Part shown: positions 19,357-62,927 of the stretch, piece after piece | Layout of the letters: each line of letters starts with the position of its first letter | Numbering within the stretch: position 1 is the first letter of the stretch | Assembly (NCBI RefSeq): GCF_011045215.1 | Contig: NZ_CP049201.1 | Length of the DNA stretch: 64,000 nucleotides | Strand: one strand, 5' to 3' | DNA from: Escherichia coli | GTDB lineage: Bacteria > Pseudomonadota > Gammaproteobacteria > Enterobacterales > Enterobacteriaceae | Translations under genes and position numbers: made by a program | Notes under the pieces: model-generated | Seen by the model: the letters and a program-made list of their open reading frames with translations, nothing else | Databases searched by the model: none | What the model was told of the DNA's origin: nothing

Positions 19357-19569
19357 CAGCTTTTCCTTACAGAGGGTGAATAAAAAAGCCGGTACCCACA
19401 AATGTGGATACCGGCAGGTACAAAACAGCATGGTCAGATAAAGTGGTTTTTCCCGGACATAAATGCTTCCCCTCTCTCATCCGCCAGAGAAGTATCAGTC
19501 CGTTGTGTGCAATTCCGTTCTGCATGATGAAGAGATTCAGCTGCCTTTTCGCAGGCCATTAACCACTAC

Positions 19570-19612
19570 AAACGATCGATACTAACGATCGATACCTGTT
19601 TTATCGATCGTT
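19570..19612 (-). promoter_or_regulatory. agn43 phase-variation switch: three clustered GATC (Dam) sites overlapping the expected OxyR operator
   Basis: ACGATCGATACTAACGATCGATACCTGTTTTATCGATCG; three GATC within ~40 bp, ~215-255 bp upstream of the flu start. Confidence 0.65.
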
Positions 19613-41299: not shown

Positions 41300-43126
<1,827 letters not shown>

Positions 43127-43222
43127 ATTCCGTCTGAAGGGAATATGTCGAATACTTCATTAAAATACAAACATTCAGTAAACTTCACTACGCAAGTGCA
43201 ATTATCCAGTCCCGTCTAATGA

Positions 43223-43798
43223 TTAAAAACGATAACCAACTCCAACAGTAAATCCATTGACCGAATGTTTTCCATATATATCTGCTTTAGTTCCCTCATA
43301 CCCAACATTTACAGACATATTGCCCCACGGATTAATAATAACACCAGCTGCATAAGCAAAATCAGTGGATTTTTTTGATACAGACTCACTTAAATATCCA
43401 TCAGATTCATCAGCACCCACACTGTTTCTCCACTCATAATCTCCCTTCGCTTTAGTATGAGATATCCCCACCAAACCATAAAAACTGATATAGTCATTCA
43501 GACGATAAGCTGGGCCTGCGAGAAATGAATAATATTTAATATCAGCCTGCTGTCTGTAAAAATCGTCAGCTTCATCGCGATGACTGTCCGCCCAGTCACC
43601 TTTCATATACGAAAAACTCCCGACAACACTGACCGGAGAATCCCACTCATATCGATATTGCAGATTCACTCCTTTAATATTCTTAAAGTCCTGTACCTTA
43701 CTCTGAGCATAACCAGCCGATAGCGTATGATTATCAGCCAGTGTTGAACCACTCATAACAGATAATATCATTACTGAAATTATAACGAGTTTTTTCAT
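43223..43798 (-). CDS. Ail/Lom/PagC-family outer-membrane beta-barrel protein (191 aa)
   Basis: Track ORF; signal peptide MKKLVIISVMILSVMSGSTLA; TLSAGYAQSK...YRYEW; C-terminal ...GFTVGVGYRF. Confidence 0.85.
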   Translation of the reverse strand: MKKLVIISVMILSVMSGSTLADNHTLSAGYAQSKVQDFKNIKGVNLQYRYEWDSPVSVVGSFSYMKGDWADSHRDEADDFYRQQADIKYYSFLAGPAYRLNDYISFYGLVGISHTKAKGDYEWRNSVGADESDGYLSESVSKKSTDFAYAAGVIINPWGNMSVNVGYEGTKADIYGKHSVNGFTVGVGYRF

Positions 43799-44344
43799 TT
43801 AACCCTCCTTCATTAATAAATGATTTCTGAAAATCAAAAAGGACCACACATCACAAAACATTATTTGAAATCATCATCAAAAAACTATAAATATATCACC
43901 TGACGATTTGAACACACTGACAAAAAACCAGGCATGGTAATAAACCGAACTCCCCACAAACTTCTGTTGCCTCAGATACCACAGCCACTTTCCTCAGGTA
44001 TAAATGTTGTTCCATAACGAACCAGCCCTGTATCGTTAAATCCTGCCTCAGTGACATAATGTAACTCACCAGACTGAGTCTTCGCCTACATCATCATTTC
44101 AATACGCTTAATACATTATTCATAATATCCAGAATTTCCTATAGAATATTTACTTTGCTATATCAGTCGGTCCATAATCAGGCAAATCATTAATGCTTCC
44201 TGACTGAATATTTAAAATGCGTCACATGTTATCAAAAATTTAAAGAATACCCTATTCTTCTTCATTGGCCGGATTTAGCTCAATCTTGTCAACAAAACTA
44301 ATATAAAGCCGTTCATAAAGAGAAGGATGTAGCTTCGTTATTTA

Positions 44345-44460
44345 TCTTTTACATGTAACAGTACCAGGGGATATTCCGCACATCTCTGTGGCTATCATCC
44401 CCACCACATCGCCGGTGGCAGCACCTGCGGCACCAGCAAGAACGTTATTTCCCAATGTCC
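44345..44460 (-). pseudogene. Remnant of a cdiA pretoxin-region coding segment (no start codon)
   Basis: Reverse frame encodes ...GNNVLAGAAGAATGDVVGMIATEM..., homologous to cdiA at ~46620-46700 (QGNNALAGAAGAATGEVVGMIATQM); nucleotide similarity visible by eye. Confidence 0.45.
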
Positions 44461-44467
44461 GGATTAC

Positions 44468-44728
44468 TCAGGATCCTGACGAGGGCGTTTTTCGAGCCTT
44501 GCGTTCGTCCAATTTGGTGAAGATCCACGATCTAAATGCTGCTGCAGTTCCAACAATAACACTAGCAACTAAAATATTTTCAAGATCTGATTGCTTAATA
44601 TTCACTTCATGGCTAATAACAAACTTAACTACTATCAGAGTCAAGGAGAAGAATATTAAGCAGCAGAAAATCATGTACATAATACTTAGGAGCAGTAAAC
44701 CTACAGTAGCTTTATTTTTTCGTTCCAT
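44468..44728 (-). CDS. Small membrane protein (86 aa), candidate immunity protein for the upstream toxin-like ORF
   Basis: Track ORF; two hydrophobic helices; overlaps the stop of the 200-aa ORF. Confidence 0.5.
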   Translation of the reverse strand: MERKNKATVGLLLLSIMYMIFCCLIFFSLTLIVVKFVISHEVNIKQSDLENILVASVIVGTAAAFRSWIFTKLDERKARKTPSSGS

Positions 44729-45314
44729 TTATCTCATCTTTAACTGCATTGCTGATAAATTCACCACCTATAGCACCAATAATATCACCTGAAGGCACTG
44801 AACCTGGACCTAAAACAGGGCTAAATACCGGCGGTGCAACTACTCCAACTACAGTACCGAATACCCAACCAGCTCCCGTACCAGCTAAAGCACCTTTATC
44901 TGGTCCATCAATAAATAGAGTTCCACCTGCCGCTATCCCTGCGTTCTGCCATATATTTCGACCTGGAGCCAGCGCTCCAGTAATGCCTGCCGAGGCACTT
45001 CCCCAGTAATCCCAGCTCTTGTTTTCATTGCCTGGTTTGCTCAAGTCGTACCACTGATACGTACCATTGGCAATGGCTGAGATGACTGCGCCACTGACTA
45101 CTTTACCTGTTGATGCTGCAGGTCCTAAATACCAGGCACCTGCAATCAATACGCCATCTTTATAGCCATCAACTATCACTTTACTTATATTGGCACCTTC
45201 AGGTAACTCACCTTTGGCAAGTTTATCCAGTCCTGCCTGCTTCTGTTCCGGGGTGAGATTATTGGCATCAGCATACTGATTCCATGAGGAAACCGCCTGA
45301 CCATAACTCACCAT
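44712..45314 (-). CDS. Glycine-rich toxin-like protein (200 aa), possible pore-forming/ionophore module downstream of cdiI
   Basis: Track ORF; glycine-zipper-like hydrophobic stretch GALAGTGAGWVFGTVVGVVAPPVFSPVLGPG...IIGAIGG; same composition as the CdiA C-terminal domain. Confidence 0.5.
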   Translation of the reverse strand: MVSYGQAVSSWNQYADANNLTPEQKQAGLDKLAKGELPEGANISKVIVDGYKDGVLIAGAWYLGPAASTGKVVSGAVISAIANGTYQWYDLSKPGNENKSWDYWGSASAGITGALAPGRNIWQNAGIAAGGTLFIDGPDKGALAGTGAGWVFGTVVGVVAPPVFSPVLGPGSVPSGDIIGAIGGEFISNAVKDEINGTKK

Positions 45315-45352
45315 TCCTGATGGCAGACTGAGCGCATTATTCTCAACAACAA

Positions 45353-45571
45353 CTATTTACGATAGTATCTTCGCATTTGTAGATAGAGTTGTAACCAAAT
45401 CCCAGCACCTCCCCATAAGCCAACTACTGCGCCAATTATTCCGTATTTTACATACACCTCAGAAGGTATTGGTTCCCGAGCTATAAACCAGATACTAACC
45501 ACTATTCCAATAGAGCAAGTAGCTATAGATATAAGTAACAACTTAATAAGAAGTAGTAGATGTTTTTTCAT
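45353..45571 (-). CDS. cdiI: Putative CdiI immunity protein, small inner-membrane protein (72 aa)
   Basis: Track ORF; start overlaps the cdiA stop; two predicted transmembrane helices. Confidence 0.65.
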   Translation of the reverse strand: MKKHLLLLIKLLLISIATCSIGIVVSIWFIAREPIPSEVYVKYGIIGAVVGLWGGAGIWLQLYLQMRRYYRK

Positions 45572-48500
45572 TTTTTGTCTCCATCAACTTCTTTTTGCGT
45601 TGCGCTGCTTGCACCTTCTGATACGAATGAACCAACAAATCCACCAAATGTTCCTGGTATAGAACTCATTTGGCCGCCTTGATACATACCGTATCCGATA
45701 GACTTTTCCGAATATTGCAGTGAATATTTACTGGCGTCCATTCCCAGTTGATTTTTGATGTATTGAGCTTCTAACTTATTAGTAATTGAAGCGCCAATGT
45801 TATAGCCAAGGCCTGTACCAGCCATGCTACCCACTACTGATGCGGTACTGTCCTGGCCTTCAATCTGGCTGCTCATGTAAGCGCTACCGGCACCCAACAA
45901 CTGGTTAGCGTAATATCCTTTCCCGGCTGTACCTACACCAGTCAAGCCTGACATCATGAAACTGAGATAATCGAACTTATCACCGATATTTCCCGTACCA
46001 ATTTGTACCGCACCATTAGCCCCATAGCTCAGCCCGGCACTAACAAATTTTTCCGTCAGCGTGGCTGATGACGTTAACAACGAACCCGCTCCGGCAACCG
46101 TACCCCAGTAATTTTCCGGTTCCCCGAAGAAAGCCAGAGCCCTGTCACCCTTCGACGTATTACTGTTCAGATAATTCAGGTCGTAGCTGTTGCCTTCAGC
46201 CACGTAATCCTTCACCTCCTGATTAGTCAGTGAACCATACAGCCAGCTAGGTCGGCCCGCCGCGCTGAGCCCGCCCTCAATATTCCATTTATCTTCCCCG
46301 GACAGAGCCGTCAGAGGATCTGCGGCCACATCAATGTGTAATTTCTGTCGGTTCTCTGCGCTTAATACAGCATATTTATTCTGAATATCGCCGCAGTCTC
46401 CACCCGCTTTACGACAGGCCGTCATTTCTCTGTCAAAAGCATGCGCCTCGTCGTAGCTGAGGTAGTTATTCTCAACTGTTGTCTTACCTGACTGTGCGCC
46501 GGCTACCGCTGAAGCCCCCGAGTCGCCCACCAGACCACCGGCCAGGCCGGCAGCAACCGTTGCCAGCGTGGAGACCGTCTGTTTCTCTGTCTCACTCAGT
46601 TCACTCACCGGTTTATCGTACATCTGTGTGGCTATCATTCCCACCACCTCGCCGGTGGCTGCACCTGCAGCACCGGCAAGAGCATTATTTCCCTGTGCCA
46701 GAGACAGTGCGGCATTCACCACGGCATGGGCGGCCACATTTGCAGCCTTATTCACCTCACCTGTAACCGGGTCTGTGGTCATGGTTTTCACCACTTCAGC
46801 CAGATACGGTGCTGCACCACCTGCCAGGGCTGCACTCAGATTACCGCCGGCCAGCCCCTGTACTGCTGCCGTTGCGGCCTGTATCGCCTGCTGGTATTTG
46901 CCTCCCGTTCCAAAACCGGAGGCCGCCATACCGTTATTGTAAGCCCGCTGTGCCACATCCTGTTCCGTGAACGGTTTTCCTGCTGCCTCAAGCTCTGCAC
47001 GGGCCTGATTCAGTGCTGCCGGGTCCCGTTTCGCTTTCTCACCGGCTATCTGTCCTTCCGTTCTGGCAATATCTGCCACCTGGTTACCAATCTCACCAAT
47101 GAGTTGCGCCTGCTGCAACCGCTGCTGCTCTTTTTCCCTGTCAAAGATGGGGGACAGCGTCTGGTTTGCATGCGCAACGTCACGGTTCAGGTCTGCCACA
47201 TCCTGTTTCTGGCTCTGTGTATCCCGGATAGTGATATTCCCGGCAGACACAGCCGACTGCGTGGTACTGTCCGCATGGCCTTCATGATTTGCACCGACCA
47301 GCAGATTGTTTGCCATGTTCCCCAGGAAATTTCCGGCAACACTGCCACCGGTACTGAGCCCTGCACTCTGATGTTCCGTTTTAAAGTCAGCCCGGTTTTC
47401 AGTGTCACTGAAGCCCAGTGTGCCGGTATCCAGCCTGTTTTTATCTGCCGTTGCCGTGGACGCAATCACCGCACCGTTCAGTTGTGTATGCTGTCCGGTC
47501 GTGACATCAAACCCGCCCCTGCCGGCAAAAATCCCTGTCTGCTCCTGCACACTGTCGTGGTTACTGTGCATTTTATCCCGGCTGAGGCTCACACTCGCCG
47601 AACCGCTCATGGACCCGAAAGTGAAGCTGCCTCCGGCGCTGGCATTCTGCTGTTTACTGTCATAATGGTCACTGTCCTGCTCACTGGTCAGTGTCAGATG
47701 GCGACCGGCATCCACTTTCACGGTTTCTCCACTGGCCTGCGCCCCGGTAAGTGTGGTGTCACGCCCACTGATAATGGTCAGCTGTTTTCCCGCATCCACC
47801 GTGGTTTCTGTATGGGTGGTACCGTTGCCTTTTTCACTGCCCTTACCCTGGTTTGCGCTGGCTGACAGACTGAAACCAGGCCCTCCGGGCCCCACACCGA
47901 TACCGACACCCACGCTGCCACCACTGGATGTGTTCTTTCCTTCCAGCTTTGACGTGTTTTCTGCTGATACCAGATTCACGTCACGGTTTGCCTGCAGCAG
48001 AACGTTGTTCCCGGCCTTTATCTGACCGCCCTGTATCGTCAGGTCACCATCCACGCCCTTCACGCCGGAGCCGGTGGCCTGAATACTGAGGTTATTACCT
48101 GCGGTCAGTGTACTGCCCTTCGCCACCGTCTGCTCTGACTGCTGTTCTGATTTCGAAGACTGGCTGCCGTAAGAGAGGCTGATACCCACGGTATTGTTAT
48201 TCTCTTTCTGGTTGCCCTGTGCTTCTGCCAGTCGTCCGGCCTGCACGGCCTGAGCCCCCGAGAGCGCGGCCTTCACCCCCTGCAGGGCTTCAAGCCGGCT
48301 GTTTCCGGCAGATTTCGCCGCCTGTACGGTCTCCACCGTCGTGTTCAGGGCGCTGCCCGCTGTGCCGGACAGGGCAAGCGTCAGACCGGAGGTTTTCTGC
48401 TCCACCGTATGTGTCTGCACATGCCGGTCAGTGGCGGCGGTAATGCTGACCTCCTTACCACTGAGTGCCATGTCCCTGCCGGCAATCAGGTCAGAGCCGT

Positions 48501-51500
48501 TGACGGTCAACCGGTTACCTGCCTGAAGGGAAACATCACCGTGAACACTCCCCACCGTGCTGCCTTTCTGCGTGGTGTCTGTTGCGGTGTCCGTGACCTT
48601 CAGACTCTGGCTGCCCACGCTGAATCCCACACCTCCGGAGCTCATCAGTCCGGATTTTTTCTCCTGTTTCAGGTGTGTTTCACGGTTGCTTTCTGTCAGC
48701 GTTCCGATACTCAGGTTATTTCCGGCAGCCAGGGAGACACGGTTATCCCCGGCCACACTGCTGCCCGTGACGTTCAGATTATGTCCGGCACCGATACTGA
48801 CCGTATCCCCGTTCAGTTCACTGCCCGTCATGGTCCGGCGGTCAGTGACATCATGCGTGGTAGTGGTGGTTTTCGATAACATCCCGCTGTTGCCGGTCAC
48901 TTTATGGTATTCATCCAGCGAGCGGGTATTCTGTGCACCGGTCAGCGTCACGTCATGACCCGCCATCAGGGCCAGGCCTTTCTGAGCTGACAGCAATGCC
49001 GCCTGTGACGTCATATCCCGTCCGGCGGTCAGCGTGACATCACCGTTACCGGCAAGCGTGCTGCCCGTACTCTGTGTGACGCCCTGCGACAGACGATTAT
49101 TTTTATCCCAGATAATATTGTCCTGCGCGGATGTGGTCACTGTGGAGAATGTCATATCCCTGCCGGCACTGAGTTGCGTCAGACTGTCCTTACCCTGGTT
49201 CACCACCGTTGCTGCCGTCAGGTTTATGTCCCGTCCGGCCTGCAGCACCAGTCTGCCCTGGTCATTCTGCACATATACGCCAGCCACACTGTCGATGCTG
49301 GTACGTTCAAAATGGTTCTGTCCGGCGTCACTCTGTGCCGTACGGGTGGTGGTGGTCAGACTGATATCCCGTCCGGCCATCGCCAGCAGGCTGTCCGTGG
49401 CCTGCAGCAGCCCGCCGGTACTGTTAATATCCGTCCGGGCCGTCAGGCTGACATTTGCTCCCTGAATGGTGCCGGCCTGGTTGTGAATGTTTTCTGCACT
49501 GAGCTGCACGGCCTGCTTCCCGGCCAGTTTACCGCTGTTAAACAGGTCACCATCCAGCTTCATCACCATGTCCCTGCCGGCAATCAGCGCACCGGCACTG
49601 TTCACATCACCGGGTTTTACACGGGCATACACCTGAGGTACCTGAACCGTCTGCGTGCTGCCGTCCGGCAGTGTCACCGTGGTGTTAACCAGCCAGACAA
49701 TATCACCGGTCAGTAACGCCATCTGCTCAGCAGTCAGCGCCACACCTGGTGTCAGGTTGTATTGCTTACCAAATGCAATACCCGCATCCATTAACGCCTT
49801 AAACTGCTCTTCATCATTACTGTATCCGTCCAGGTACCGTTGCCCGGTCAGAGCGACAACCTGCTCACGAATCAGACGCTGTTCGTAAAAACCATCCCCC
49901 AGGCGTTTGAGCATGTTATCCCCGTTCTGAGAAAACGCCTTCTGCATGTAATCACTGCCCAGCCACGTCTTCTGGTTCGTAAAACGCGGGTCCGTTTCAA
50001 CCAGATATGGCACATTCACTGCCGGATTTGTTTTAAACAGGCTGCTGTCCGGCAGACGGGTATCCGGCCCGGCAACATGGATACTGCCCTGAGGTGCGCT
50101 GACTTCAAACTGCTGCCCCGGCAACAGAATGACCGGTTCACCGGCTGACACCACCGGGCGAAGCGGTATCCGGTCAGTAACGGCTACTGTCGCATCCACA
50201 TTTCCGGTCAGTCCTGTCTGTACATCCGTTCCCTGTGGCTTCAGGGGAGAAAGCGTGACCTGGCTGCCCTGAACCTGTCCGTGGCTGGTGAGCTCTCCCG
50301 GCTTCAGCGTGATGGTCTGAATGACGGGGGGCGGCTCGTAAGGGGAAATTCTTTCCCCCTGCCTGTCATTTTTATTTTTTCTTTTTATCCGGTAATAATA
50401 TGTGGATGTCCCTTTATCAGTAACATGGCGCTCTCCGCTGACACTGACGTTTTCCACATCACCGGCCTGCATATCCAGCAGACCACCTGCAACCACCTGG
50501 CTCTTGTCATTAAGCAGTTTGTCTGCCACAACCGTCATGCCGGCACCGGACAGTATTTTCCCCGGGTCGGAGTCTTTTACCCGGGTTTCCTCCACGGTAC
50601 GGGTGTATTCATATTTTGTGAACCGGTCGTTGTTATGTCCGGTATCATCCGGCGTGTTCAGGTTCAGCAGTCCATCAGAGGAGTTGTTATCAATGAACAC
50701 CCCCTCATCTTTTGCATTCCAGCGGACATCTGACCCGCGATGCTGATACTCAGTCACCTTTTCCGTGGAAACCACCACGCGCTCCGTGGTGAAATGGTCA
50801 TTGACGTTATTGATTTGTCCGGCACTCAGTACCAGATATCCGGCGGCTTCAATAGTGGCACTGTGATTATTCAGTACACCGGTTTTACCTGTGGCGGTGC
50901 CATTCGCATCCAGCGTGCCACCGATATGCATATCACCTGCACTGTAAATCAGGCTGTGCGTCCGGTTATTCAGGGTCTGTACCCCCAAGTCCACACGCTC
51001 ACGCCCGGCCAGCGTCGCCGCCACGCCATTTTCTTCCAGATTATTAAATGTGGCAGCACTGACACCAACAGCATCGCCGTAGATTCGCCCGGTACCGGAA
51101 TTCGTCAGGGTGTTCGCCTGAAGATGCGTATATTTCCCGTCAATCAGCCCACGGTTCAGCAGTGTGTCCGTCACGTTAAGCCAGGTCTGCCCGGCACTGA
51201 TTTCACCTTTCCCGGTGTTTTCAAGGCGGATGCTGTTCAGGTCAAGTCGGCTGCCTGCCAGCAGGCTGCCGGTATTAGAGACATCGCCATTAACGGAAAG
51301 CGTAAGGTTTCCGTTCGCAATAGTCTGACCACTGTTACTGAACGCTGTGTTACTTTTCAGCGTTATATCGCCCGGGGAAAGCAGTTTCCCGTCACCACCG
51401 AGCTGACCGGCATCCACAGAGACTGACTGCCCGGCCTTAACCACACCGTCACGGTTCGAAAACGCCAGCTGACGGCCACTGACAGACAATGTCGCGCCGG

Positions 51501-54500
51501 AAGAGAGCACGCCATCATTATTACTGAGCGTCCTGTCTGCCATAACCGTAAGCGCCCTGTCTGCCAGAATACTGCCCTCCTGGTTATCAAGGTCCTGCGT
51601 CGTGATGTGTATTGTCTGCGCTTCCAGCCCCTGGCCGGTATTCTGCGTGTGGCGATTGATAAACTGCAGGGCGTTCAGCGTAATGGCAGAACCACTGCGA
51701 ATCAGACCAGAGACGTTGTCCACAACGCCCCGTACACTGTCGAACAGAATGTCGCCCACAGACTGTATCTGTCCGTGGCTGTTCTGCAGGCCTCCCGTAT
51801 GCAGACGGAGTTCACCTTCACTGACCAGCCGGCCACCCTCACGGTTATCCAGCGAGGTGGTGCTCAGGTCAGCTGTCGTTTTCGCCCCCACGGTCCCGCC
51901 CCGGTTATCCATTGCTCCGGTACTGACAGTCAGTTCCTGCAGGCTGTTCAGCGTACCCCCTCTGTTATCCAGCGTCCGGCCTGCGCTATTAATGCTGATG
52001 CCTTTCCCCTGAATAAGACCGGACTGATTGTTCAGCGCCAGACTGTTCCGGCCGGGCAGACCGGTCGCCACAATCTGACCATTCGCCACCACCTGACCGG
52101 ATGTATTGTTAACCACGCCTGCAGTCAGGGACAGCGCATCTCCCGACAAAAGCACACCGGCAGTGCTGTCCAGTGTGCCGGCATTCAGCGTCATCGGGCC
52201 CTGACTGATAACCCCGCCCCGGTCACCACTGTTACGGTTGCTCAGTGTGTCAGCACGGAGATTCAGTGTGGCACCGCTCTGTATCAGACCACCTGCATCA
52301 TTGCTGATATCCGTCGAGGAAAGGGTCAGTGACTGCTGTGCCACCAGTCTGCCGCCCTGATTATCAGAGCGGGTGACATCCAGCCTGCTGTTACCGTTGC
52401 TGACCACCGTCCCCTGCTGATTTTCCAGCACATTCAGGTGCGCATTCAGGTCCCCGCCGGCGGCAAGCGTCCCTTCCTGATTACTGACATCGCCACCACT
52501 CAGCAACATATCCGTCCCGGCCTTCAGTGCGCCTTTCTGGTTCATCAGCGTACCTGACGATATCTGTAATGACGCCTGACTCCCCAGCACGCCCTGACGG
52601 TTATCGAGCGTTCCGGCGTTCAGGGTCATATCCTTCTGACCCGCCATAAATCCCTGCTGGTTATTCAGCATACCGGCCCGTACTGTCAGGGTACCGGCGC
52701 TGCTGATACCACCCCGTGTTTTCGTGTTCCGGTTACTGAGAACCCCGTCCTGTACATCCAGCGTCATGTCACTGCCGGACTGAATCAGACCATCATCAGA
52801 GACCAGTTCGCTGCCTGACACAGACAGCGTTTTCTGTGAAAGCAGTCTGCCGGACGTATTATCCAGCGCACCATCCAGCGTCACGGACAGCCCGTCAGAC
52901 ACCACCGTACCCTGGTGGTTATTCAGACTCCCTGCCGAAATATCCAGCCTGCCGGCGGACTCCATTCGTCCCTCAGTATTGCTGACAGCCTGCTGTGTTT
53001 TTATCCTGCCCGTTCCGGCAGCAGCTGAAATCAGTCCGTTGTCGTTATTCAGTGCCTGTGTATTAATCAGGATGTCACGGCTGGCAATCAGACTTCCCTG
53101 CTGGTTATCCACGGCGCCGGTTGTCCTCACCTGCAGACTACCTGACTGCGCCGCCTGCACTTTCCCCCTGCGATTATCAAGGCTCAGTGCATCCAGGCGC
53201 ACCGCGCCATTTGCCGCAAGCAGCCCTTCCCGGTTATCCACGCTTCCCGGCAGACTCAGCGAAAAATCCCCTGTTCCCGTCTGAATCAGACTGCCTTTAC
53301 GATTTGACAGGCTCTGTGCCGATATCTGCAGTGTGTCGGCATTTACCGTGCCACCATTATTGCTGAACTGCCCGGCAGTCCGGGCGGAAAGCGTACCGGC
53401 ACTCAGTTGTGCATTCTGTGTGGACAGATTTCCGCTGCCTGCATCCAGCTCAGTATGTTGTCCCTGTATCCGGCTGTTGCTTAAATCCAGCCCCTGCCCC
53501 TTCAGTTGCATGTCCCCACCGGACAGAACCTGTCCGTGTGCCGCCAGTTCGCCGGTGGTACTGACAGTCAGGTTGCCCGCTGCCGCCAGACGTCCGTCAT
53601 CTTTCACCCCGGCGGCCAGCAGACTCCGCTCACCGCCGGTCAGACGCGCTGTCTGAATCCGGGTGTTGCGGCGTGATGCCACAGAGCCTGTATGGGTGAA
53701 TGCACCATCACTCTGTATCTGCGTATCCTGCCCCGCATAAACAGAACCACTGTTATGCAGCTCCCGGGTTGTCGCCAGATGCACATCCGTTTTCGCACTG
53801 ATACTGCCACTGTTTTCAATACGTCCGTCAGCCGTCAGGGTAACCGCCCCTGCCTGCGCACCAATATGACCGGCGTTACGAACCCCCACCCCCGTTTCCG
53901 TACCGACAAGGCGAATTTTTCCGGCATACATTCCACCAAGGCTGGACACATCCAGCGCCACCTGTGGCTGCGAAGAGGCATCAGCGGCTTTTTTCTCAGT
54001 CTGCCCGTGTGCAATATCCACATTGTTACGTCCGGTGGTCACTTTCAGGTCCTGCGCCCAGATACCCGCATTAATCTTCACAGACCGGGCAATGATATCG
54101 GTATAATCCGTGCGCGAGGCATCCATCCCTTTGCCCGTAATCTGAATCTCACCACGTTCAACACTGAATCCGGTCAGACTGCCGTTTTTCATCTGAGGCT
54201 GCCCCGTGGTCAGCGTGGCCCGGTTCGCATTAATAAAACCGCACCCGTCGCAACTGATGCCGGCCGGGTTCGCAATCACCACCTGCGCCTTTTTCCCGGC
54301 AACCTCAACAAAACCGTTCAACTGGCTGGGATTGCGACTGTTCACTTCATTAAGAATGATTCGGGCCTCTCCCTTCGCCAGCCACGGGTTACCGGCAACC
54401 ATGCCGCCCAGTTGGGTCTGCACATTTTTATGCGAGTTATTCAGAATGACACCCTGATGACTGACATCAAACTGACTGTAAGTATTGTGCGATACCCCAC

Positions 54501-54804
54501 CTGCAGAAGGTGTCTGGATATTGACCTGAGGAATGCCGCTGGCTGTCTGCGTAATCGTGGGCTGCTGATGCCCCGGTGCGCCATGGTCTGCGACAATGCC
54601 TGCAGCACTGACAGAATGCACCATCCCCGAGGCCAGCCACAGGGAGAATGCAAGCGATGTGACACGGCAGATACGTTGCCTGCGTGGATATCCTGTACGG
54701 GAGGAGGGTGATGCACCGGCGCGACCGGAACGGGCAATATCTGCCACCACCATCAGCATTCCCCGGGCTTTGTTAAAAATAATGCGGTAACAATTTTTGT
54801 TCAT
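45568..54804 (-). CDS. cdiA: Contact-dependent growth inhibition exoprotein CdiA (3078 aa), two-partner-secretion TpsA family
   Basis: Track ORF; extended signal peptide MNKNCYRIIFNKARGMLMVV; TPS domain (NTYSQFDV...ILNEVNSRNPSQL); long repeat region; VENN motif 298 aa before the C-terminus. Confidence 0.92.
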   Translation of the reverse strand: MNKNCYRIIFNKARGMLMVVADIARSGRAGASPSSRTGYPRRQRICRVTSLAFSLWLASGMVHSVSAAGIVADHGAPGHQQPTITQTASGIPQVNIQTPSAGGVSHNTYSQFDVSHQGVILNNSHKNVQTQLGGMVAGNPWLAKGEARIILNEVNSRNPSQLNGFVEVAGKKAQVVIANPAGISCDGCGFINANRATLTTGQPQMKNGSLTGFSVERGEIQITGKGMDASRTDYTDIIARSVKINAGIWAQDLKVTTGRNNVDIAHGQTEKKAADASSQPQVALDVSSLGGMYAGKIRLVGTETGVGVRNAGHIGAQAGAVTLTADGRIENSGSISAKTDVHLATTRELHNSGSVYAGQDTQIQSDGAFTHTGSVASRRNTRIQTARLTGGERSLLAAGVKDDGRLAAAGNLTVSTTGELAAHGQVLSGGDMQLKGQGLDLSNSRIQGQHTELDAGSGNLSTQNAQLSAGTLSARTAGQFSNNGGTVNADTLQISAQSLSNRKGSLIQTGTGDFSLSLPGSVDNREGLLAANGAVRLDALSLDNRRGKVQAAQSGSLQVRTTGAVDNQQGSLIASRDILINTQALNNDNGLISAAAGTGRIKTQQAVSNTEGRMESAGRLDISAGSLNNHQGTVVSDGLSVTLDGALDNTSGRLLSQKTLSVSGSELVSDDGLIQSGSDMTLDVQDGVLSNRNTKTRGGISSAGTLTVRAGMLNNQQGFMAGQKDMTLNAGTLDNRQGVLGSQASLQISSGTLMNQKGALKAGTDMLLSGGDVSNQEGTLAAGGDLNAHLNVLENQQGTVVSNGNSRLDVTRSDNQGGRLVAQQSLTLSSTDISNDAGGLIQSGATLNLRADTLSNRNSGDRGGVISQGPMTLNAGTLDSTAGVLLSGDALSLTAGVVNNTSGQVVANGQIVATGLPGRNSLALNNQSGLIQGKGISINSAGRTLDNRGGTLNSLQELTVSTGAMDNRGGTVGAKTTADLSTTSLDNREGGRLVSEGELRLHTGGLQNSHGQIQSVGDILFDSVRGVVDNVSGLIRSGSAITLNALQFINRHTQNTGQGLEAQTIHITTQDLDNQEGSILADRALTVMADRTLSNNDGVLSSGATLSVSGRQLAFSNRDGVVKAGQSVSVDAGQLGGDGKLLSPGDITLKSNTAFSNSGQTIANGNLTLSVNGDVSNTGSLLAGSRLDLNSIRLENTGKGEISAGQTWLNVTDTLLNRGLIDGKYTHLQANTLTNSGTGRIYGDAVGVSAATFNNLEENGVAATLAGRERVDLGVQTLNNRTHSLIYSAGDMHIGGTLDANGTATGKTGVLNNHSATIEAAGYLVLSAGQINNVNDHFTTERVVVSTEKVTEYQHRGSDVRWNAKDEGVFIDNNSSDGLLNLNTPDDTGHNNDRFTKYEYTRTVEETRVKDSDPGKILSGAGMTVVADKLLNDKSQVVAGGLLDMQAGDVENVSVSGERHVTDKGTSTYYYRIKRKNKNDRQGERISPYEPPPVIQTITLKPGELTSHGQVQGSQVTLSPLKPQGTDVQTGLTGNVDATVAVTDRIPLRPVVSAGEPVILLPGQQFEVSAPQGSIHVAGPDTRLPDSSLFKTNPAVNVPYLVETDPRFTNQKTWLGSDYMQKAFSQNGDNMLKRLGDGFYEQRLIREQVVALTGQRYLDGYSNDEEQFKALMDAGIAFGKQYNLTPGVALTAEQMALLTGDIVWLVNTTVTLPDGSTQTVQVPQVYARVKPGDVNSAGALIAGRDMVMKLDGDLFNSGKLAGKQAVQLSAENIHNQAGTIQGANVSLTARTDINSTGGLLQATDSLLAMAGRDISLTTTTRTAQSDAGQNHFERTSIDSVAGVYVQNDQGRLVLQAGRDINLTAATVVNQGKDSLTQLSAGRDMTFSTVTTSAQDNIIWDKNNRLSQGVTQSTGSTLAGNGDVTLTAGRDMTSQAALLSAQKGLALMAGHDVTLTGAQNTRSLDEYHKVTGNSGMLSKTTTTTHDVTDRRTMTGSELNGDTVSIGAGHNLNVTGSSVAGDNRVSLAAGNNLSIGTLTESNRETHLKQEKKSGLMSSGGVGFSVGSQSLKVTDTATDTTQKGSTVGSVHGDVSLQAGNRLTVNGSDLIAGRDMALSGKEVSITAATDRHVQTHTVEQKTSGLTLALSGTAGSALNTTVETVQAAKSAGNSRLEALQGVKAALSGAQAVQAGRLAEAQGNQKENNNTVGISLSYGSQSSKSEQQSEQTVAKGSTLTAGNNLSIQATGSGVKGVDGDLTIQGGQIKAGNNVLLQANRDVNLVSAENTSKLEGKNTSSGGSVGVGIGVGPGGPGFSLSASANQGKGSEKGNGTTHTETTVDAGKQLTIISGRDTTLTGAQASGETVKVDAGRHLTLTSEQDSDHYDSKQQNASAGGSFTFGSMSGSASVSLSRDKMHSNHDSVQEQTGIFAGRGGFDVTTGQHTQLNGAVIASTATADKNRLDTGTLGFSDTENRADFKTEHQSAGLSTGGSVAGNFLGNMANNLLVGANHEGHADSTTQSAVSAGNITIRDTQSQKQDVADLNRDVAHANQTLSPIFDREKEQQRLQQAQLIGEIGNQVADIARTEGQIAGEKAKRDPAALNQARAELEAAGKPFTEQDVAQRAYNNGMAASGFGTGGKYQQAIQAATAAVQGLAGGNLSAALAGGAAPYLAEVVKTMTTDPVTGEVNKAANVAAHAVVNAALSLAQGNNALAGAAGAATGEVVGMIATQMYDKPVSELSETEKQTVSTLATVAAGLAGGLVGDSGASAVAGAQSGKTTVENNYLSYDEAHAFDREMTACRKAGGDCGDIQNKYAVLSAENRQKLHIDVAADPLTALSGEDKWNIEGGLSAAGRPSWLYGSLTNQEVKDYVAEGNSYDLNYLNSNTSKGDRALAFFGEPENYWGTVAGAGSLLTSSATLTEKFVSAGLSYGANGAVQIGTGNIGDKFDYLSFMMSGLTGVGTAGKGYYANQLLGAGSAYMSSQIEGQDSTASVVGSMAGTGLGYNIGASITNKLEAQYIKNQLGMDASKYSLQYSEKSIGYGMYQGGQMSSIPGTFGGFVGSFVSEGASSATQKEVDGDKK
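45571..46476 (-). other. CdiA-CT toxin domain: VENN motif (46465-46476) plus 298-aa glycine-rich C-terminal domain
   Basis: ...GKTTVENNYLSYDEAHAFDREMTACRKAGGDCG... followed by Gly/Ala/Ser-rich hydrophobic stretches (GTVAGAGSLL, GLTGVGTAGKG, VVGSMAGTGLGYNIGA). Confidence 0.75.
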
Positions 54805-54819
54805 TCTGATAAACCTGAC

Positions 54820-55347
54820 TTATCTCTCCGGCACATCCACAGCAAGCGGGTGCTGCACACGCCACTGGCGCGCCTCTTCACGACTGACCTGTGCACCCCG
54901 GAAATTCATCACCCGCAACCCGGTCTGCTGCCCACGGTGGTACAGCGAACGCCAGCACAGACGGGGAAAAATATCCTGCCGGACAAGACGACTCATATCC
55001 GGGGTATGTCCAAAAGGGGCAATCCAGTCACAGACCCACATCCGGTCGCCGCTGTTCCAGTCCGACTGAGGCATGAGAATTGCCGGCTGCGTAAGATAAC
55101 GCGCCTCTGCCTCCGGGCTGAGCCAGGCCTGGCTCATGAAGAAAACCGGTCGCCCCTGCTCTGTTGCCACCACATACTGTCGGTGCTTAATCACCGGCAG
55201 CAGCAGGTCCGGCAGGGTATGCAGTGGCGCATCACGATGCAGGGGGGAGTGCATCCACAACCAGACGGCCGCCCCCAGAACTTCCGCCTCATTGACCGGC
55301 TCACCGGAATACAGGGGACTCAGAACGTCATATTTCCCGTTACGCAT
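54820..55347 (-). CDS. cdiC: CdiC, HlyC/CyaC-family toxin-activating lysine acyltransferase (175 aa)
   Basis: Track ORF; VWLWMHSPLHRDAPL and SGDRMWVCDWIAPFG align with the HlyC motifs SWLWASSPLHRNWPV and SGDRKWFIDWIAPFG (HlyC recalled from memory); lies between cdiB and cdiA. Confidence 0.85.
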   Translation of the reverse strand: MRNGKYDVLSPLYSGEPVNEAEVLGAAVWLWMHSPLHRDAPLHTLPDLLLPVIKHRQYVVATEQGRPVFFMSQAWLSPEAEARYLTQPAILMPQSDWNSGDRMWVCDWIAPFGHTPDMSRLVRQDIFPRLCWRSLYHRGQQTGLRVMNFRGAQVSREEARQWRVQHPLAVDVPER

Positions 55348-55356
55348 GAAATTTTC

Positions 55357-57096
55357 TCAGAAATCCCGGAACAGATTAAAACCGGCTGTCACATCACTCG
55401 TCATAAAACCCGCCGGTTTTGAAAACGGACGACCGATGAAAACGTCATAATCCGTACTGAACAGTTGCCCCCTCAGCCCCACAACACCACCGGCCAGATG
55501 ACGTCCCACCAGGTATTCACTGCCGGCTCCCCCCACCTCGCCGTAATCCATTCCCAGATATAACGCCTGCTCCGGCAGTGGCGTACGCCAGGCCAGGTCG
55601 TTGCGGATATACCAGCCGTTACTGGCATTCAGCGTTCGCTCCCCGTCAAAACCACGAACCGTCCAGCGGTTACCGATGGCAAACTGTTCCTGTGGGGTCA
55701 GCGGGGTATTGCTCAGCTGGCGCTGATACCGGAAGGAATAACTGAAGGGCTGCCCTGCAAGGGTAAAGGGCAGATTAAAGGATGCATTCAACTGCAGGAT
55801 CTTACTGAGCGCCGTTGCCTCACCGAACGTTTCTTCCGGCGCCGGCTGTGCACCAAACCAGCGGGTTCCCCGTTGCCAGCTGACACCAGCATCCAGTGTG
55901 GCCTGAGAAATATAATGACGGTGCTGCAGCCCAAGTCGCCAGGCCGCTGTCTGCCGGCGCTGCACCTGGATTTCCGTATCATTAATGTAGTTACGCGACC
56001 TGCGGGCCTGAACATCGTAGGTCAGCACCGTTTTCTGCGTCCCGTTACGGTGCAGTACCCGGCTCAGCTGCATACCCAGATTCTGACTCTCGCCACTGTA
56101 CTGGTAATCCTCAACCGCACCAGCTACCGTCTGATGGTAATCGTAATCACTGGCGGTGACGGAAAACTGCCAGTAGCCGAAAGGCACAGAGTAATGGGCC
56201 GTGTAGTTTTTACTGCCCTTACCCCCGTAATGTGGAAAATTACGGGTGGCAGAAACATACAGCAGGTCACTCAGGGAAAAAGGATTATCCAGAGAAAATG
56301 TTATACCACCGAGATAACGCCCTGTGCTGCGGGTACCTGAATCATCAAGCGAAAACCCCAGTCGCCAGTATTTGTCCTGTTTGCGGGTAATAAGAATGTC
56401 ACTTTCCCCTGGCTGCTCACCGGGTACAATTTCCATATCAGCCTGCACACCCGGCAGTCGTTGCATATTCTCCAGCCCCTGCTCAATGTCCCGTAAATCC
56501 AGCAGAGAACCTTCGTGTGCCGGGAATGAGGAATACAACTGAATATAGTCATCACTGTCCGGTGTCAGACGCACATGTCGCACAACACCGGGAATAACAA
56601 CCAGCCGGAGGATACCGCTTTTTAAATCCTGCGAAGGTGCCAGAACACGGGTGGTGACATAACCATGATCGACCAGACGGTTCTGCAATGTACTCATCAG
56701 CAGATTAATTCCTTTCGCCCCCAGGCAATGCCCGACCGCCCCGTTGGCGATTTTTTGTAAAGGCAGCCAGTGTGGTAACGCATCAGCCCCCTCCAGTTCC
56801 GTCTGTTTAATCTGAAAACAGGGCGTTTCAACAGGAAAATTAATCTTACGGGCAAAAGAGCCAGGTGCAGAAAGGCGAACATCAGGGGCTGAAGGCGTCA
56901 GTTGTTGCTCAAGGGCTTCCTGACGCTGCTGCTGAATGATAAATGCATTATCTCCGCTACGCCGGACATCCGCGGCCTGAAGAGATAAAGGCGATAATAA
57001 AACAGACATCAGTGTCAGTGACAGCAAGGACGGACAGCGCCGGAATACGCTTTGTTCCTCAGCCCTCTCGTTCCTGCAACATAATTTTCCAGTCAA
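55357..57096 (-). CDS. cdiB: CdiB, TpsB/Omp85-family outer-membrane transporter (579 aa)
   Basis: Track ORF; signal peptide at the internal start [15 protein letters not shown] (~57009); C-terminal beta-barrel ending ...AGFNLFRDF. Confidence 0.88.
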
Positions 57097-57303
57097 ACGA
57101 AAAACCTTTTATTCATGTCATACCAACAATCACCAGCCTCCTGACGATACCTCCCACCATGTTTTGCGATGGTACGCTACCGCCCTTCCGGTATTTACCC
57201 GCATCAACCGGTACCAGAATGTTGAGTAATAAATTTGTCAACTCTGAATTGGTTTAATTTTGATCATTATAGAATGAAGATCTGAAAATTCTCAATATTG
57301 CAG

Positions 57304-57321
57304 ACATATCGATCGATATGT
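57304..57321. promoter_or_regulatory. Perfect 18-bp palindrome containing GATC, ~210-300 bp upstream of cdiB
   Basis: ACATATCGATCGATATGT is self-complementary; function not established. Confidence 0.3.
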
Positions 57322-57687
57322 AGTTATCACGTAGTTATTTATTCCAACTAATATCGCAAAAGCAGCATATTGCAAAACTTATAACCACGGAGAACAAAAA
57401 ACGACAGAAAATTATTCCGTAAGATGCTTCAAATACAGCCAGTCAACACTGAAAAAAGTGATTTTTGATTAAAATCATTGAAGTTTATGCAGTACAGAAT
57501 CTGAGCGGTTCTCAGCGAAAGTCAGAAGAAAGGGAGGTGAGGTAAAAGGCAGAAATCAGAGTGACAGGAATGCACAAAAAGCAAAAAAAAATCAACAAAA
57601 CAATAAATTAACATACCCCGAAAAAGCATCCGCAACGTACCGGGTAATAACAACAATATCGTGTAAAACAACATTGTTCCGGAAGTT

Positions 57688-57879
57688 ATGTCTGAAGATA
57701 TCCCGTTACCCAAAGTCGGTCAGCGATACAGAGACGATCATGGTGCGCTTGTCACCGTAACCAGTGTTGAGGAAACCCGGGTGGTATTTATGCGGGACGG
57801 CTATCCACATCCCTGTATGCGGCCAATGTACAACTTTCCAGGAAAATTCAAACCCGAACCCCGGGAAGAAACAGAATAA
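57688..57879 (+). CDS. Small hypothetical protein (63 aa), possibly DUF4222-like
   Basis: Track ORF; an antisense ORF 57706..57981(-) overlaps it and is judged less protein-like; family name from memory. Confidence 0.35.
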   Translation: MSEDIPLPKVGQRYRDDHGALVTVTSVEETRVVFMRDGYPHPCMRPMYNFPGKFKPEPREETE

Positions 57880-57931
57880 AACGAAATTCCTGCCGGCAAT
57901 CACACTGCCTGATGGCAGCATAATCCACTTT

Positions 57932-58165
57932 TTAATTCTCATCCCCGAAGACAAGCCCAGAAAACCACTCCGGGTGTTCACTGTATGCCGTGTTCAGCGC
58001 ATCCCAGGAAACGTTTATATAAAAGCTGTCCTGCAATCTGCGGGTAACAACTTCTGCCAGGCGATTCCGGTTATCCGCCAGTCCGGCATAACCTCTCTCT
58101 GCCAGCCACTCATTCAGTTCATGTTCCAGAGACAGATTGATAATATCGTAATCGGACCTTGCCAT
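57932..58165 (-). CDS. Small hypothetical protein (77 aa)
   Basis: Track ORF; no motif recognised. Confidence 0.4.
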   Translation of the reverse strand: MARSDYDIINLSLEHELNEWLAERGYAGLADNRNRLAEVVTRRLQDSFYINVSWDALNTAYSEHPEWFSGLVFGDEN

Positions 58166-62360: not shown

Positions 62361-62927
62361 TCAGAAGTGAGGCTTACGAGGACGCCCTGCAGCAGGTCGT
62401 TCAGGAACTTCATTGCAGCCGTAGGCGCACAGCCCGTCTTTTTGTTCTTCTTTCGCCAGATAATGCAGGACACCGCGAATATTATCGATGCTCCCGGGAT
62501 CGTTATGACGCACGGGGATGTTGATGTTGTATGTATAATGCGGCTGATATGTACAACGGTGCACCGAACCGCTGTTATGCGTAATAGACCGCCAGCATTC
62601 CGTAATCCGCTCCGCAAAGGGATATACTTTTTTAACCCTCTGACGATCGATCCAGAAAACCGCATGCGCATGAAAACCATGATCAACCGTCCATTCAATC
62701 ACCCAGAAGAAGCCAACCATATTTTCAAATTGTTCCGCCTGCTCCAGCAGCATACGTAACTGTAATTCAAGCCAACGATGATCAGGTTGTAAGAAATCAG
62801 GCGTATCTTTCCTGTAGAAGAAATCCATGCGTAAGGCCCGCAGGCAGGAATAGCGTGCTATCATTTGATTGATGTGATTGTCAAATAAAGCGGTAAAAAA
62901 CCAGTTTGGTGTGTAAGATTTAGGCAT
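62361..62927 (-). CDS. Inovirus Gp2-like (YagK/YfjJ-family) protein with an HUH-like motif (188 aa)
   Basis: Track ORF; HGFHAHAVFW contains a His-hydrophobic-His motif typical of rolling-circle Rep-like proteins. Confidence 0.55.
   Translation of the reverse strand: MPKSYTPNWFFTALFDNHINQMIARYSCLRALRMDFFYRKDTPDFLQPDHRWLELQLRMLLEQAEQFENMVGFFWVIEWTVDHGFHAHAVFWIDRQRVKKVYPFAERITECWRSITHNSGSVHRCTYQPHYTYNINIPVRHNDPGSIDNIRGVLHYLAKEEQKDGLCAYGCNEVPERPAAGRPRKPHF

What the first reader, a model, noticed from the sequence alone, without database searches (positions are those of the whole stretch)
57304..57321. Perfect 18-bp GATC-centred palindrome upstream of cdiB
ACATATCGATCGATATGT is fully self-complementary and lies in the cdiB upstream region. 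Its GATC core makes Dam-dependent or dimeric-regulator control of the CDI operon a possibility.
Basis: seen in the sequence. Interest (0 to 1): 0.3.

Follow-up and report, generated by a model that had tools for sequence, protein, structure and literature searches.

The report
Dam site of shared weapon promoter
The palindrome is real, and its centre is the third Dam-methylation site (GATC-III, also called G3) of a known iron- and methylation-controlled E. coli promoter first described for a type VI secretion system; here that promoter sits in front of a contact-dependent toxin operon instead.

Summary
ACATATCGATCGATATGT is a perfect 18-bp palindrome at 57304-57321, about 280 bp upstream of cdiB. 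It lies 8 bp upstream of the -35 of a strong predicted sigma-70 promoter on the minus strand.

The promoter region is homologous to Psci1, the promoter of the enteroaggregative E. coli (EAEC) sci1 type VI secretion (T6SS) cluster:
- The three GATC sites have the same 17/32-bp spacing and the same restriction-site contexts.
- The proximal Fur box is an identical 19-mer.
- A published Psci1 cloning primer matches the window exactly.

The GATC at the palindrome's centre is G3 (GATC-III). In Psci1, mutating G3 locks expression OFF, and mutating the adjacent distal Fur box F2 locks it ON.

Only the core is conserved. G3 is kept in 68 of 69 related sequences, and the commonest form is the 12-bp TATCGATCGATA. 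The perfect 18-bp form was seen only in this window, and F2 is replaced in this allele.

Comparison with strain E300010 shows cdiBCAI and the sci1 cluster as alternative cassettes behind the same promoter. The junction lies about 10 bp past the predicted transcription start. The cdiB-linked version is in 1,095 of 5,426 complete E. coli genomes and the tssB-linked version in 183.

Dam (with Fur) control of this CDI operon is therefore plausible by homology but untested. I found no support for a dedicated dimeric regulator.

The parts
57304..57321 (.). Perfect 18-bp palindrome ACATATCGATCGATATGT. It spans -62 to -45 relative to the predicted transcription start (centre -53.5).
57307..57318 (.). 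12-bp core TATCGATCGATA, the commonest form among homologous promoters. ATCGATC is invariant in 41 of 42 alleles.
57311..57314 (.). GATC corresponding to G3 (GATC-III) of Psci1. It lies inside overlapping PvuI (CGATCG) and BspDI/ClaI (ATCGAT) sites, as in Fig S1 of PMC3145626.
57290..57295 (-). Predicted -35 hexamer TTGAGA.
   Evidence: same hexamer in the tssB-linked alleles
57279..57282 (.). GATC corresponding to G2 (GATC-II), in the promoter spacer. It lies in BglII and Hpy188I contexts, 32 bp from G3.
57266..57271 (-). Predicted -10 hexamer TATAAT.
57253..57271 (-). Proximal Fur box (F1 in PMC13262931). It matches the Fur consensus at 13/19 and overlaps the -10 and G1. The 19-mer TATAATGATCAAAATTAAA is identical to the one in an EAEC 17-2 Fur-box cloning oligonucleotide (the oligo is labelled Bfur2; its sequence is the -10-overlapping box that the paper's text calls fur1).
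57262..57265 (.). GATC corresponding to G1 (GATC-I), in a BclI context (TGATCA), 17 bp from G2.
57259..57259 (-). Approximate predicted transcription start. It is inferred from the -10 position and has not been mapped.
   Evidence: inference
57317..57335 (-). Position equivalent to the distal Fur box F2 of Psci1, which in 17-2 is CCTGATTATTTGCATTATA (11/19). Here the sequence is ACTACGTGATAACTACATA (6/19), so it is not Fur-like. This patch is hypervariable between alleles and overlaps 5 bp of the palindrome's upstream arm.
57250..57250 (.). Cassette junction. To the right lies the promoter and backbone shared with sci1 T6SS loci; to the left lies the cdi-specific leader and operon.
57028..57259 (-). 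Predicted cdiB leader of about 230 nt. It is highly conserved among cdiB-linked loci but has no Rfam match and no significant predicted fold.
55357..57027 (-). cdiB, the two-partner-secretion transporter (ShlB, POTRA_2 and POTRA_3 domains).
54820..55347 (-). cdiC, a HlyC-family lysine acyltransferase, which marks this as a class IV cdiBCAI locus.
45568..54804 (-). cdiA, the 3,078-aa effector ORF.
57723..57747 (-). Exact match to primer 'Prom sci1-5' of Brunet et al. 2011, inside the divergent DUF4222 gene (57688-57879, plus strand). It marks the upstream end of their 596-bp Psci1 fragment.

Best explanation
The palindrome is the G3 (GATC-III) Dam site of a Psci1-type promoter. In this E. coli genomic island that promoter drives the class IV contact-dependent inhibition operon cdiBCAI instead of the sci1 type VI secretion cluster.

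Shown by sequence:
- The same -35 and -10 hexamers as Psci1.
- An identical proximal Fur box over the -10 and G1.
- Identical G1-G2-G3 spacing and sequence contexts.
- Homology of the whole intergenic region.
- A cassette junction about 10 bp downstream of the predicted transcription start.

Inferred from the published sci1 work:
- Fe-Fur bound at the proximal box blocks RNA polymerase and shields G1 from Dam.
- Under iron limitation Fur leaves, Dam methylates the sites, and methylation hinders Fur rebinding. This gives heritable ON and OFF subpopulations.
- The G3 adenines (about -54/-53) lie 2-3 bp from the distal Fur box F2 in Psci1. Intact G3 is needed there for the ON state.

The 18-bp perfection is an allele-specific extension of a conserved 10-14 bp core made of overlapping ATCGAT and CGATCG, not a functional unit in itself. 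In this allele F2 is replaced by unrelated sequence. G3 may therefore contribute less repression relief than in sci1, and the promoter may be leakier.
For: Promoter and sites:
- Predicted promoter TTGAGA-18-TATAAT, an 11/12 match, with the palindrome 8 bp upstream.
- GATC sites at 57262, 57279 and 57311, spaced 17 and 32 bp. Fig S1 of PMC3145626 places GATC-I/II/III at 500/483/451 with BclI, BglII/Hpy188I and PvuI/BspDI sites, the same contexts as here.
- The 13/19 Fur box at 57253-57271 is the identical 19-mer to the one in a 17-2 Fur-box oligonucleotide.
- The Psci1 primer matches the window exactly at 57723-57747.

Homology and spread:
- The alignment shows the module shared between cdiB-linked and tssB-linked loci.
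- Flanks are shared with E300010, with cdi (14.2 kb) and sci1 T6SS (29.3 kb) as alternative inserts.
- G3 is retained in 68 of 69 sequences. All 12 full-length-cdiB metagenome loci that could be read at this position keep TATCGATCGATA (a 13th ends before it). The CAAT and CAAA upstream-arm variants occur only in truncated-cdiB or short-flank loci; a CGCA variant occurs upstream of a full-length cdiB match in NC101 (L004) and of a cdiB match cut off by the contig end in L008.

Experiments on the homologue and on cdi:
- Fur and Dam interplay at Psci1 (PMC3145626).
- G3 mutants homogeneously OFF, F2 mutants ON (PMC13262931).
- A cdiBCAI clone whose upstream primer lies beyond this module is expressed from native elements, and deleting the predicted promoter abolishes inhibition (PMC8510554).
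Against: - There is no direct experiment on any cdi promoter, and the transcription start is only predicted (also only 'putative' in the sci1 papers).
- The distal Fur box F2, the proposed partner of G3, is not recognisable in this allele (6/19, the background mode).
- In Brunet 2011, GATC-III was fully methylated in vivo and not protected by Fur. Its regulatory role may therefore be indirect. The OFF phenotype of G3 point mutants could reflect loss of a protein site rather than loss of methylation.
- cdiBCAI-STEC4 expressed from its native promoter was highly active in rich medium, although from a plasmid in K-12. That argues against tight Fur repression of cdi alleles.
- Conservation of the core is no greater than that of the neighbouring -35 to -45 segment.
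Confidence: 0.7

Rival explanations
1. The dyad is the operator of an unidentified, possibly methylation-sensitive, dimeric transcription factor. Centred at -53.5, such a factor could activate or repress cdiBCAI independently of Fur.
For: - The dyad symmetry is perfect, and a 12-14 bp symmetric core is common to most alleles.
- The position upstream of the -35 suits a class I-type activator.
- The OFF phenotype of sci1 G3 point mutants would also fit loss of an activator site.
- F2 is absent in this allele, yet the core is kept.
Against: - The outer arms are not conserved, and the upstream arm varies (CGAT, CAAT, CAAA, CGCA) while ATCGATC stays.
- No match was recognised to any operator consensus I could recall.
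- No helix-turn-helix regulator was identified among the nearest island ORFs by Pfam.
- The published model accounts for G3 through Fur at F2.
Confidence: 0.13
2. An agn43-type Dam/OxyR phase switch: OxyR binds the unmethylated palindrome region and represses cdiB.
For: - The GATC context TATCGATCG/CGATCGATA is the same 9-mer that surrounds all three GATCs upstream of the Ag43-like gene in this same window, at 19574, 19587 and 19606.
- OxyR quarter-sites can read ATCG in GATC-bearing sites.
Against: - No ATAGnTnnnAnCTAT-type half-site includes the palindrome. The best half-sites score 7/10 and full sites 10-11/20, within the window background, while the agn43 region scores 8/10 and 13/20.
- The GATC spacing is 17/32 bp, not the 13 bp seen in agn43 and gtr.
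- In sci1 a transposon screen found Fur, not OxyR.
Confidence: 0.04
3. The palindrome has no sequence-specific function here. It is an AT-rich upstream segment, possibly an H-NS or UP-element zone, that became palindromic by chance, and G3 is a passively methylated site.
For: - About a quarter of 64-kb windows would hold an 18-bp palindrome by chance.
- The perfect form is unique to this allele.
- The promoter region is 32% G+C against 49% for the window.
- GATC-III was constitutively methylated in vivo.
- F2 is lost in this allele.
Against: - G3 is retained in 68 of 69 sequences.
- Chromosomal G3 mutants of the homologous promoter are locked OFF.
- H-NS motif matches are only 7/10.
- The CAAT and CAAA broken-core variants were seen only in truncated-cdiB or short-flank loci.
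Confidence: 0.13

Closest known systems
[quoted passage not shown] 2011, PMC3145626; PLoS Biol 2026, PMC13262931)
   Same: - Homologous DNA: 80% identity over 195 bp to a tssB-linked locus, and an exact match to the published cloning primer.
- The same -35 and -10 hexamers.
- An identical 19-bp proximal Fur box.
- Three GATCs with identical spacing and restriction contexts.
- The palindrome centre is G3.
- The same divergent DUF4222 neighbour.
   Different: - The downstream cargo is cdiBCAI with a leader of about 230 nt, not tssB.
- The distal Fur box F2 is replaced by unrelated sequence (6/19 against 11/19).
- The palindrome extends to 18 bp, against 10 bp in the 17-2-type allele.
- No experimental data exist for the cdi-linked version.
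Class IV cdiBCAI of E. coli STEC_O31 (Allen et al. 2021, PMC8510554)
   Same: - The same operon type (cdiB, HlyC-like cdiC, cdiA).
- The same UUG-start feature of cdiB.
- Their cloned upstream region reaches beyond the position of this promoter module, and it was needed for activity.
   Different: That paper did not dissect the promoter and mentions neither Fur, Dam nor GATC sites. The common cdiB-linked alleles have a weaker -35 (TTGCTG) and an F2-like segment scoring 7-11/19, unlike this window.
agn43 (Ag43) Dam/OxyR phase variation
   Same: A cluster of three GATCs at a promoter, the identical CGATCGATA context, and competition between methylation and a repressor as the principle.
   Different: The regulator is different (OxyR), its GATCs lie inside an OxyR tetramer site with 13-bp spacing, and no OxyR-like site is detectable here.
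pap-type Dam/Lrp switches
   Same: Dam-dependent heritable ON and OFF states of a surface structure.
   Different: pap switches need two GATC boxes 102 bp apart within Lrp sites plus a PapI-like co-regulator. Neither the spacing nor such a gene is present here.

Membership tests
Psci1-type Fur/Dam switch promoter | Sequence homology to the experimentally studied 596-bp sci1 promoter fragment | tested here: met
   Primer Prom sci1-5 matches exactly at 57723-57747. The module aligns with tssB-linked loci.
Psci1-type Fur/Dam switch promoter | Three GATC sites within 53 nt flanking the -35 and -10, spaced 17 and 32 bp, in BclI, BglII/Hpy188I and PvuI/BspDI contexts | tested here: met
   Sites at 57262, 57279 and 57311, compared with Fig S1 positions 500, 483 and 451.
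Psci1-type Fur/Dam switch promoter | Proximal Fur box overlapping the -10 and G1 | tested here: met
   13/19 match at 57253-57271; the 19-mer is identical to that in the 17-2 oligonucleotide.
Psci1-type Fur/Dam switch promoter | Distal Fur box F2 immediately upstream of G3 | tested here: not met
   The equivalent 19-mer scores 6/19, which is background. The 17-2 box scores 11/19 and the common cdiB alleles 7-11/19.
Psci1-type Fur/Dam switch promoter | Fur binding, Fur-dependent protection of G1 from Dam, and dam/fur-dependent expression | not testable with these tools
   Needs EMSA or footprinting, methylation assays and reporter fusions.
Psci1-type Fur/Dam switch promoter | Drives a T6SS (tssB) cluster | tested here: not met
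   Downstream genes are cdiB, cdiC and cdiA. This difference is what makes it a new member.
agn43/gtr-type Dam/OxyR switch | OxyR tetramer site (two ATAGnTnnnAnCTAT half-sites) containing the GATCs | tested here: not met
   Best half-site 7/10 and full site 10-11/20, no better than the window background.
pap-type Dam/Lrp switch | Two GATC boxes about 102 bp apart within Lrp sites, plus a papI-like gene | tested here: not met
   GATC spacing is 17 and 32 bp, and the next GATC is 425 bp away at 57736. No such gene was found among the neighbours.
Operator of a dimeric regulator | Both half-sites conserved symmetrically across homologues | tested here: inconclusive
   A 12-bp symmetric core is present in most alleles, but the upstream arm varies and the outer 3 bp are not conserved.
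Class IV CDI locus (cdiBCAI) | cdiB, a HlyC-family cdiC and cdiA in that order | tested here: met
   Pfam ShlB/POTRA and HlyC matches, ORF order, and RefSeq annotation of homologues.

The most novel reading that the evidence does not exclude
One Fur/Dam epigenetic-switch promoter is part of an E. coli island backbone and works as a fixed 'weapon slot'. Recombination about 10 bp past its transcription start has placed either the sci1 T6SS or a class IV CDI operon behind it. On this reading CDI in about a fifth of complete E. coli genomes, where the operon is intact, would be iron-responsive and bistable like sci1. The hypervariable F2 patch next to the palindrome would tune the ON/OFF ratio allele by allele.
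Probability: 0.45. Interest if true: 0.6.

Novelty: new member of a known kind. Interest (0 to 1): 0.48.

Why it matters
How E. coli CDI operons are regulated is largely unknown. Most laboratory work uses constitutive or plasmid expression. This result links a class IV cdiBCAI operon to the best-characterised Fur/Dam switch of an interbacterial weapon, and it makes specific predictions that can be tested directly:
- Iron limitation should induce CDI.
- dam and fur mutants should lock the state.
- Expression should be heterogeneous between cells.

It also shows that the 'sci1 promoter' is about six times more often attached to cdiB or its remnants than to tssB in complete E. coli genomes (1,095 against 183). 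This suggests that weapons have been swapped behind a conserved regulatory module.

Tried and rejected
- **OxyR consensus scan**. It did not distinguish the cdiB promoter from background, so the OxyR idea was dropped despite the shared TATCGATCG context with agn43.
- **Rfam search** of 56800-58000 at E-value up to 1: no hits.
- **RNA fold of the 232-nt cdiB leader:** z-score -0.86, not significant.
- **H-NS high-affinity motif TCGATAAATT:** only 7/10 matches.
- **Pfam on neighbouring ORFs:** no local DNA-binding regulator identified.
- **Two pattern scans of 100,044 GTDB species-representative genomes:** no copy of the module, so no cross-species footprinting was possible.
- **Literature searches** for cdi combined with GATC, Dam, OxyR, Fur or sci1: no paper connects them.
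- **Pap/Lrp model:** rejected on GATC spacing.
- **Terminator or hairpin reading:** rejected, because there is no loop or T-run and the site lies upstream of the promoter (one search found no terminator-like site).

Full report
**Observation.** The sequence ACATATCGATCGATATGT occupies 57304-57321 and is perfectly self-complementary. The window is E. coli: its first 6 kb (cydDC, trxB, lrp, ftsK) are 99.3% identical to E. coli chromosomes. The feature lies in an island inserted at tRNA-Ser(GGA), which is at 8107-8194.

To the left, on the minus strand, are three genes:
- cdiB (55357-57027; ShlB and POTRA domains).
- cdiC (54820-55347; HlyC-type acyltransferase).
- A 3,078-aa cdiA (45568-54804).

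This is a class IV cdiBCAI locus as defined by Allen et al. 2021 (PMC8510554). That paper also notes the UUG start 18 nt upstream of the annotated ATG. To the right is a divergent DUF4222 gene (57688-57879).

As a bare statistic the palindrome is unremarkable. There are 2 perfect palindromes of 18 bp or more in the window, against 0.27 expected from shuffles.

**Anatomy.** A consensus scan finds a single promoter-like site in 56900-57800. It is on the cdiB strand: TTGAGA (57295-57290), an 18-nt spacer, and TATAAT (57271-57266), an 11/12 match. The palindrome begins 8 bp upstream of the -35. With a start near 57259 it spans -62 to -45.

There are three GATCs within 53 bp, at 57262 (just after the -10), 57279 (in the spacer) and 57311 (the palindrome centre). 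A 13/19 Fur-box match covers 57253-57271.

**Identification.** BLAST against 5,426 complete E. coli genomes shows this region to be a widespread, variable family present in 1,415 genomes. In some genomes, such as E300010, the homologous DNA lies directly upstream of tssB-tssC-tssK. That is the sci1 T6SS, whose promoter Psci1 was dissected by Brunet et al. 2011 (PMC3145626).

The correspondence to Psci1 is exact on several counts:
- The paper describes three GATC motifs over 53 nt. GATC-I lies 3' of the -10 inside a Fur box that matches the consensus at 13/19. [quoted passage not shown]
- Its Fig S1 places the sites at 500, 483 and 451, cut by BclI, BglII/Hpy188I and PvuI/BspDI. The window has the same 17/32-bp spacing and the same recognition sequences.
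- The oligonucleotide carrying the -10-overlapping Fur box contains the identical 19-mer TATAATGATCAAAATTAAA.
- The cloning primer Prom sci1-5 matches the window exactly at 57723-57747.

The GATC in the palindrome is therefore G3 (GATC-III).

The distal Fur box of strain 17-2 (CCTGATTATTTGCATTATA, 11/19) maps to the position equivalent to 57317-57335. It abuts G3 and overlaps 5 bp of the palindrome's upstream arm.

**What is known about the homologue.**
- Fur binds both boxes, blocks RNA polymerase, and protects GATC-I from Dam. Methylation of GATC-I lowers Fur affinity. GATC-II and GATC-III were methylated in vivo and not protected by Fur.
- A 2026 study (PMC13262931) made chromosomal point mutations. 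G3 and triple-GATC mutants are homogeneously OFF. F2 mutants are ON even in iron-rich medium. G1 and G2 mutants shift the ON/OFF ratio.
- Neither paper mentions cdi. My searches found no paper linking CDI to Fur, Dam or sci1.

**Conservation.** I scanned metagenomes with a pattern covering only the -10/G1/G2 part of the promoter. It returned 63 loci. By downstream gene they divide as follows:

| Downstream of the module | Loci |
|---|---|
| Full-length cdiB | 13 |
| cdiB match cut off by the contig end | 6 |
| Internally truncated cdiB | 10 |
| tssB | 6 |
| Neither | 20 |
| Flank too short to tell | 8 |

G3 is retained in 68 of 69 sequences (41 of 42 distinct alleles). The commonest form is the 12-bp TATCGATCGATA. 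The 17-2-type allele has only ATCGATCGAT. Upstream-arm variants CAAT, CAAA and CGCA also occur. The perfect 18-mer is found only in the window.

The closest relatives are 95% identical (for example RM11911) and read ACATATCGATCGATATAT. All 12 full-length-cdiB metagenome loci that could be read at this position keep the 12-bp core; a 13th ends before it. The CAAT and CAAA variants are confined to truncated-cdiB or short-flank loci. The sample is small and the sequences are not phylogenetically independent.

The roughly 20 bp immediately upstream of the palindrome, where F2 lies, is a hypervariable patch. In this window it is unrelated sequence that scores 6/19 against the Fur consensus, which is the background mode.

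The module was not found in any of 100,044 species-representative genomes. On this evidence it belongs to the E. coli accessory genome.

**Why a CDI operon has a T6SS promoter.** A BLAST comparison of the window with 49 kb of E300010 shows two shared flanks:
- Window 39680-43089 matches E300010 at 95.7% (an ImpA_N/VasL gene and a helicase/exonuclease gene).
- Window 57250 onward matches the promoter, DUF4222 and the backbone beyond.

Between these flanks the window carries 14.2 kb: an Ail/Lom gene, the cdiA-cdiC-cdiB genes and the cdiB leader. E300010 carries 29.3 kb in the same slot: a GIY-YIG nuclease gene and tssE through tssB. The right-hand junction is at about 57250, roughly 10 bp past the predicted start.

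In complete genomes, the junction of cdiB 5' end, leader and promoter is present in 1,095 genomes at 80% coverage or more. The junction of tssB and promoter is present in 183.

**Mechanism proposed.**

- *Shown by sequence.* The palindrome is the G3 site of a Psci1-type promoter whose core elements (-35, -10, proximal Fur box, G1, G2) are intact upstream of cdiBCAI.
- *Inferred from the sci1 experiments.* Fe-Fur at the proximal box represses the promoter. Iron limitation and Dam methylation establish and stabilise an ON state, so CDI expression should be iron-responsive and heterogeneous.
- *Uncertain.* The role of G3 itself is unclear. In sci1 it is needed for ON, presumably by antagonising Fur at F2, but this allele lacks F2. 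The promoter may therefore be leakier here, G3 may act on something else, or G3 may be vestigial.

Allen et al. cloned cdiBCAI-STEC4 with an upstream primer that maps 356-379 bp beyond the -10 region in homologous loci. They found strong activity from native elements in K-12, which was lost on deleting the predicted promoter. This fits the module being the promoter. It also suggests repression is not tight, at least when the operon is on a plasmid.

**Rivals.**
- *A dedicated dimeric regulator.* It is not excluded, because a G3 point mutation changes the sequence as well as the methylation. However, the arms are not symmetrically conserved and no candidate emerged.
- *OxyR.* It is suggested by the identical CGATCGATA context of the three GATCs upstream of the Ag43-like gene in this same window. 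No OxyR-type site can be fitted here.
- *A neutral reading.* It is countered by retention of G3 and by the sci1 mutant phenotype.

**Verdict.** The 18-bp dyad as such is incidental. The finding is a new member (cdiBCAI-linked) of a known kind (the Psci1 Fur/Dam switch).

Noticed in passing
window 19574-19609 (upstream of ORF 16507-19431, minus strand): An AIDA/autotransporter (Ag43-like) gene is preceded by three GATCs at 19574, 19587 and 19606. Each lies inside CGATCGATA or TATCGATCG, the classic Dam/OxyR agn43 arrangement, and the 9-mer context is the same as in the cdiB palindrome.
   Followed up: partly
window 57317-57338: The roughly 20 bp just upstream of the palindrome, where Fur box F2 of Psci1 lies, differs completely between allele groups while both flanks align. 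In this window it holds the direct repeat GTAGTTAT twice (57320-57327 and 57331-57338, period 11).
   Followed up: partly
window 43090-57250 versus L070 13726-43006: cdiBCAI plus an Ail/Lom gene (14.2 kb) and the sci1 T6SS cluster (29.3 kb) occupy the same slot between shared island flanks. The cdiB-linked promoter version is in 1,095 complete E. coli genomes and the tssB-linked version in 183.
   Followed up: yes
window 55119-55136: A second perfect 18-bp palindrome, TGAGCCAGGCCTGGCTCA, lies inside the cdiC coding sequence.
   Followed up: no
window 28148-28173, 31823-31872, 34934-34980, 62645-62681: Four further clusters of three GATCs within 55 bp. With the agn43-like and cdiB clusters that makes six in the window, against roughly one expected from my own rough estimate based on the GATC density.
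   Followed up: no
window 39657-40874 (minus strand): An intact 405-aa ImpA_N + VasL (TssA-like) ORF stands alone, far from any T6SS genes. The same gene is fragmented, sometimes with POTRA-gene fragments under the match, in many E. coli genomes.
   Followed up: partly
window 57113-57241 (minus strand), within the cdiB leader 57028-57259: A 42-codon ORF in the leader is annotated as a hypothetical protein in RefSeq genomes. The leader is about 98% conserved even where cdiB has been deleted, but it has no Rfam match and no significant predicted RNA structure (z-score -0.86).
   Followed up: partly
L001, L004, L006 (RefSeq annotation of cdiB homologues): RefSeq splits cdiB into a 'POTRA domain-containing' pseudogene and a ShlB-family CDS, although tblastn gives a single uninterrupted 540-aa match. 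This is probably an annotation artefact of the UUG start.
   Followed up: no
alleles in L002, L003, L006 and most metagenome loci, at the position equivalent to window 57290-57295: Most cdiB-linked alleles have a weaker -35 (TTGCTG) than this window and the tssB-linked alleles (TTGAGA). Many also carry a fourth GATC (CAGATCT) about 26 bp upstream of G3 that this window lacks.
   Followed up: no
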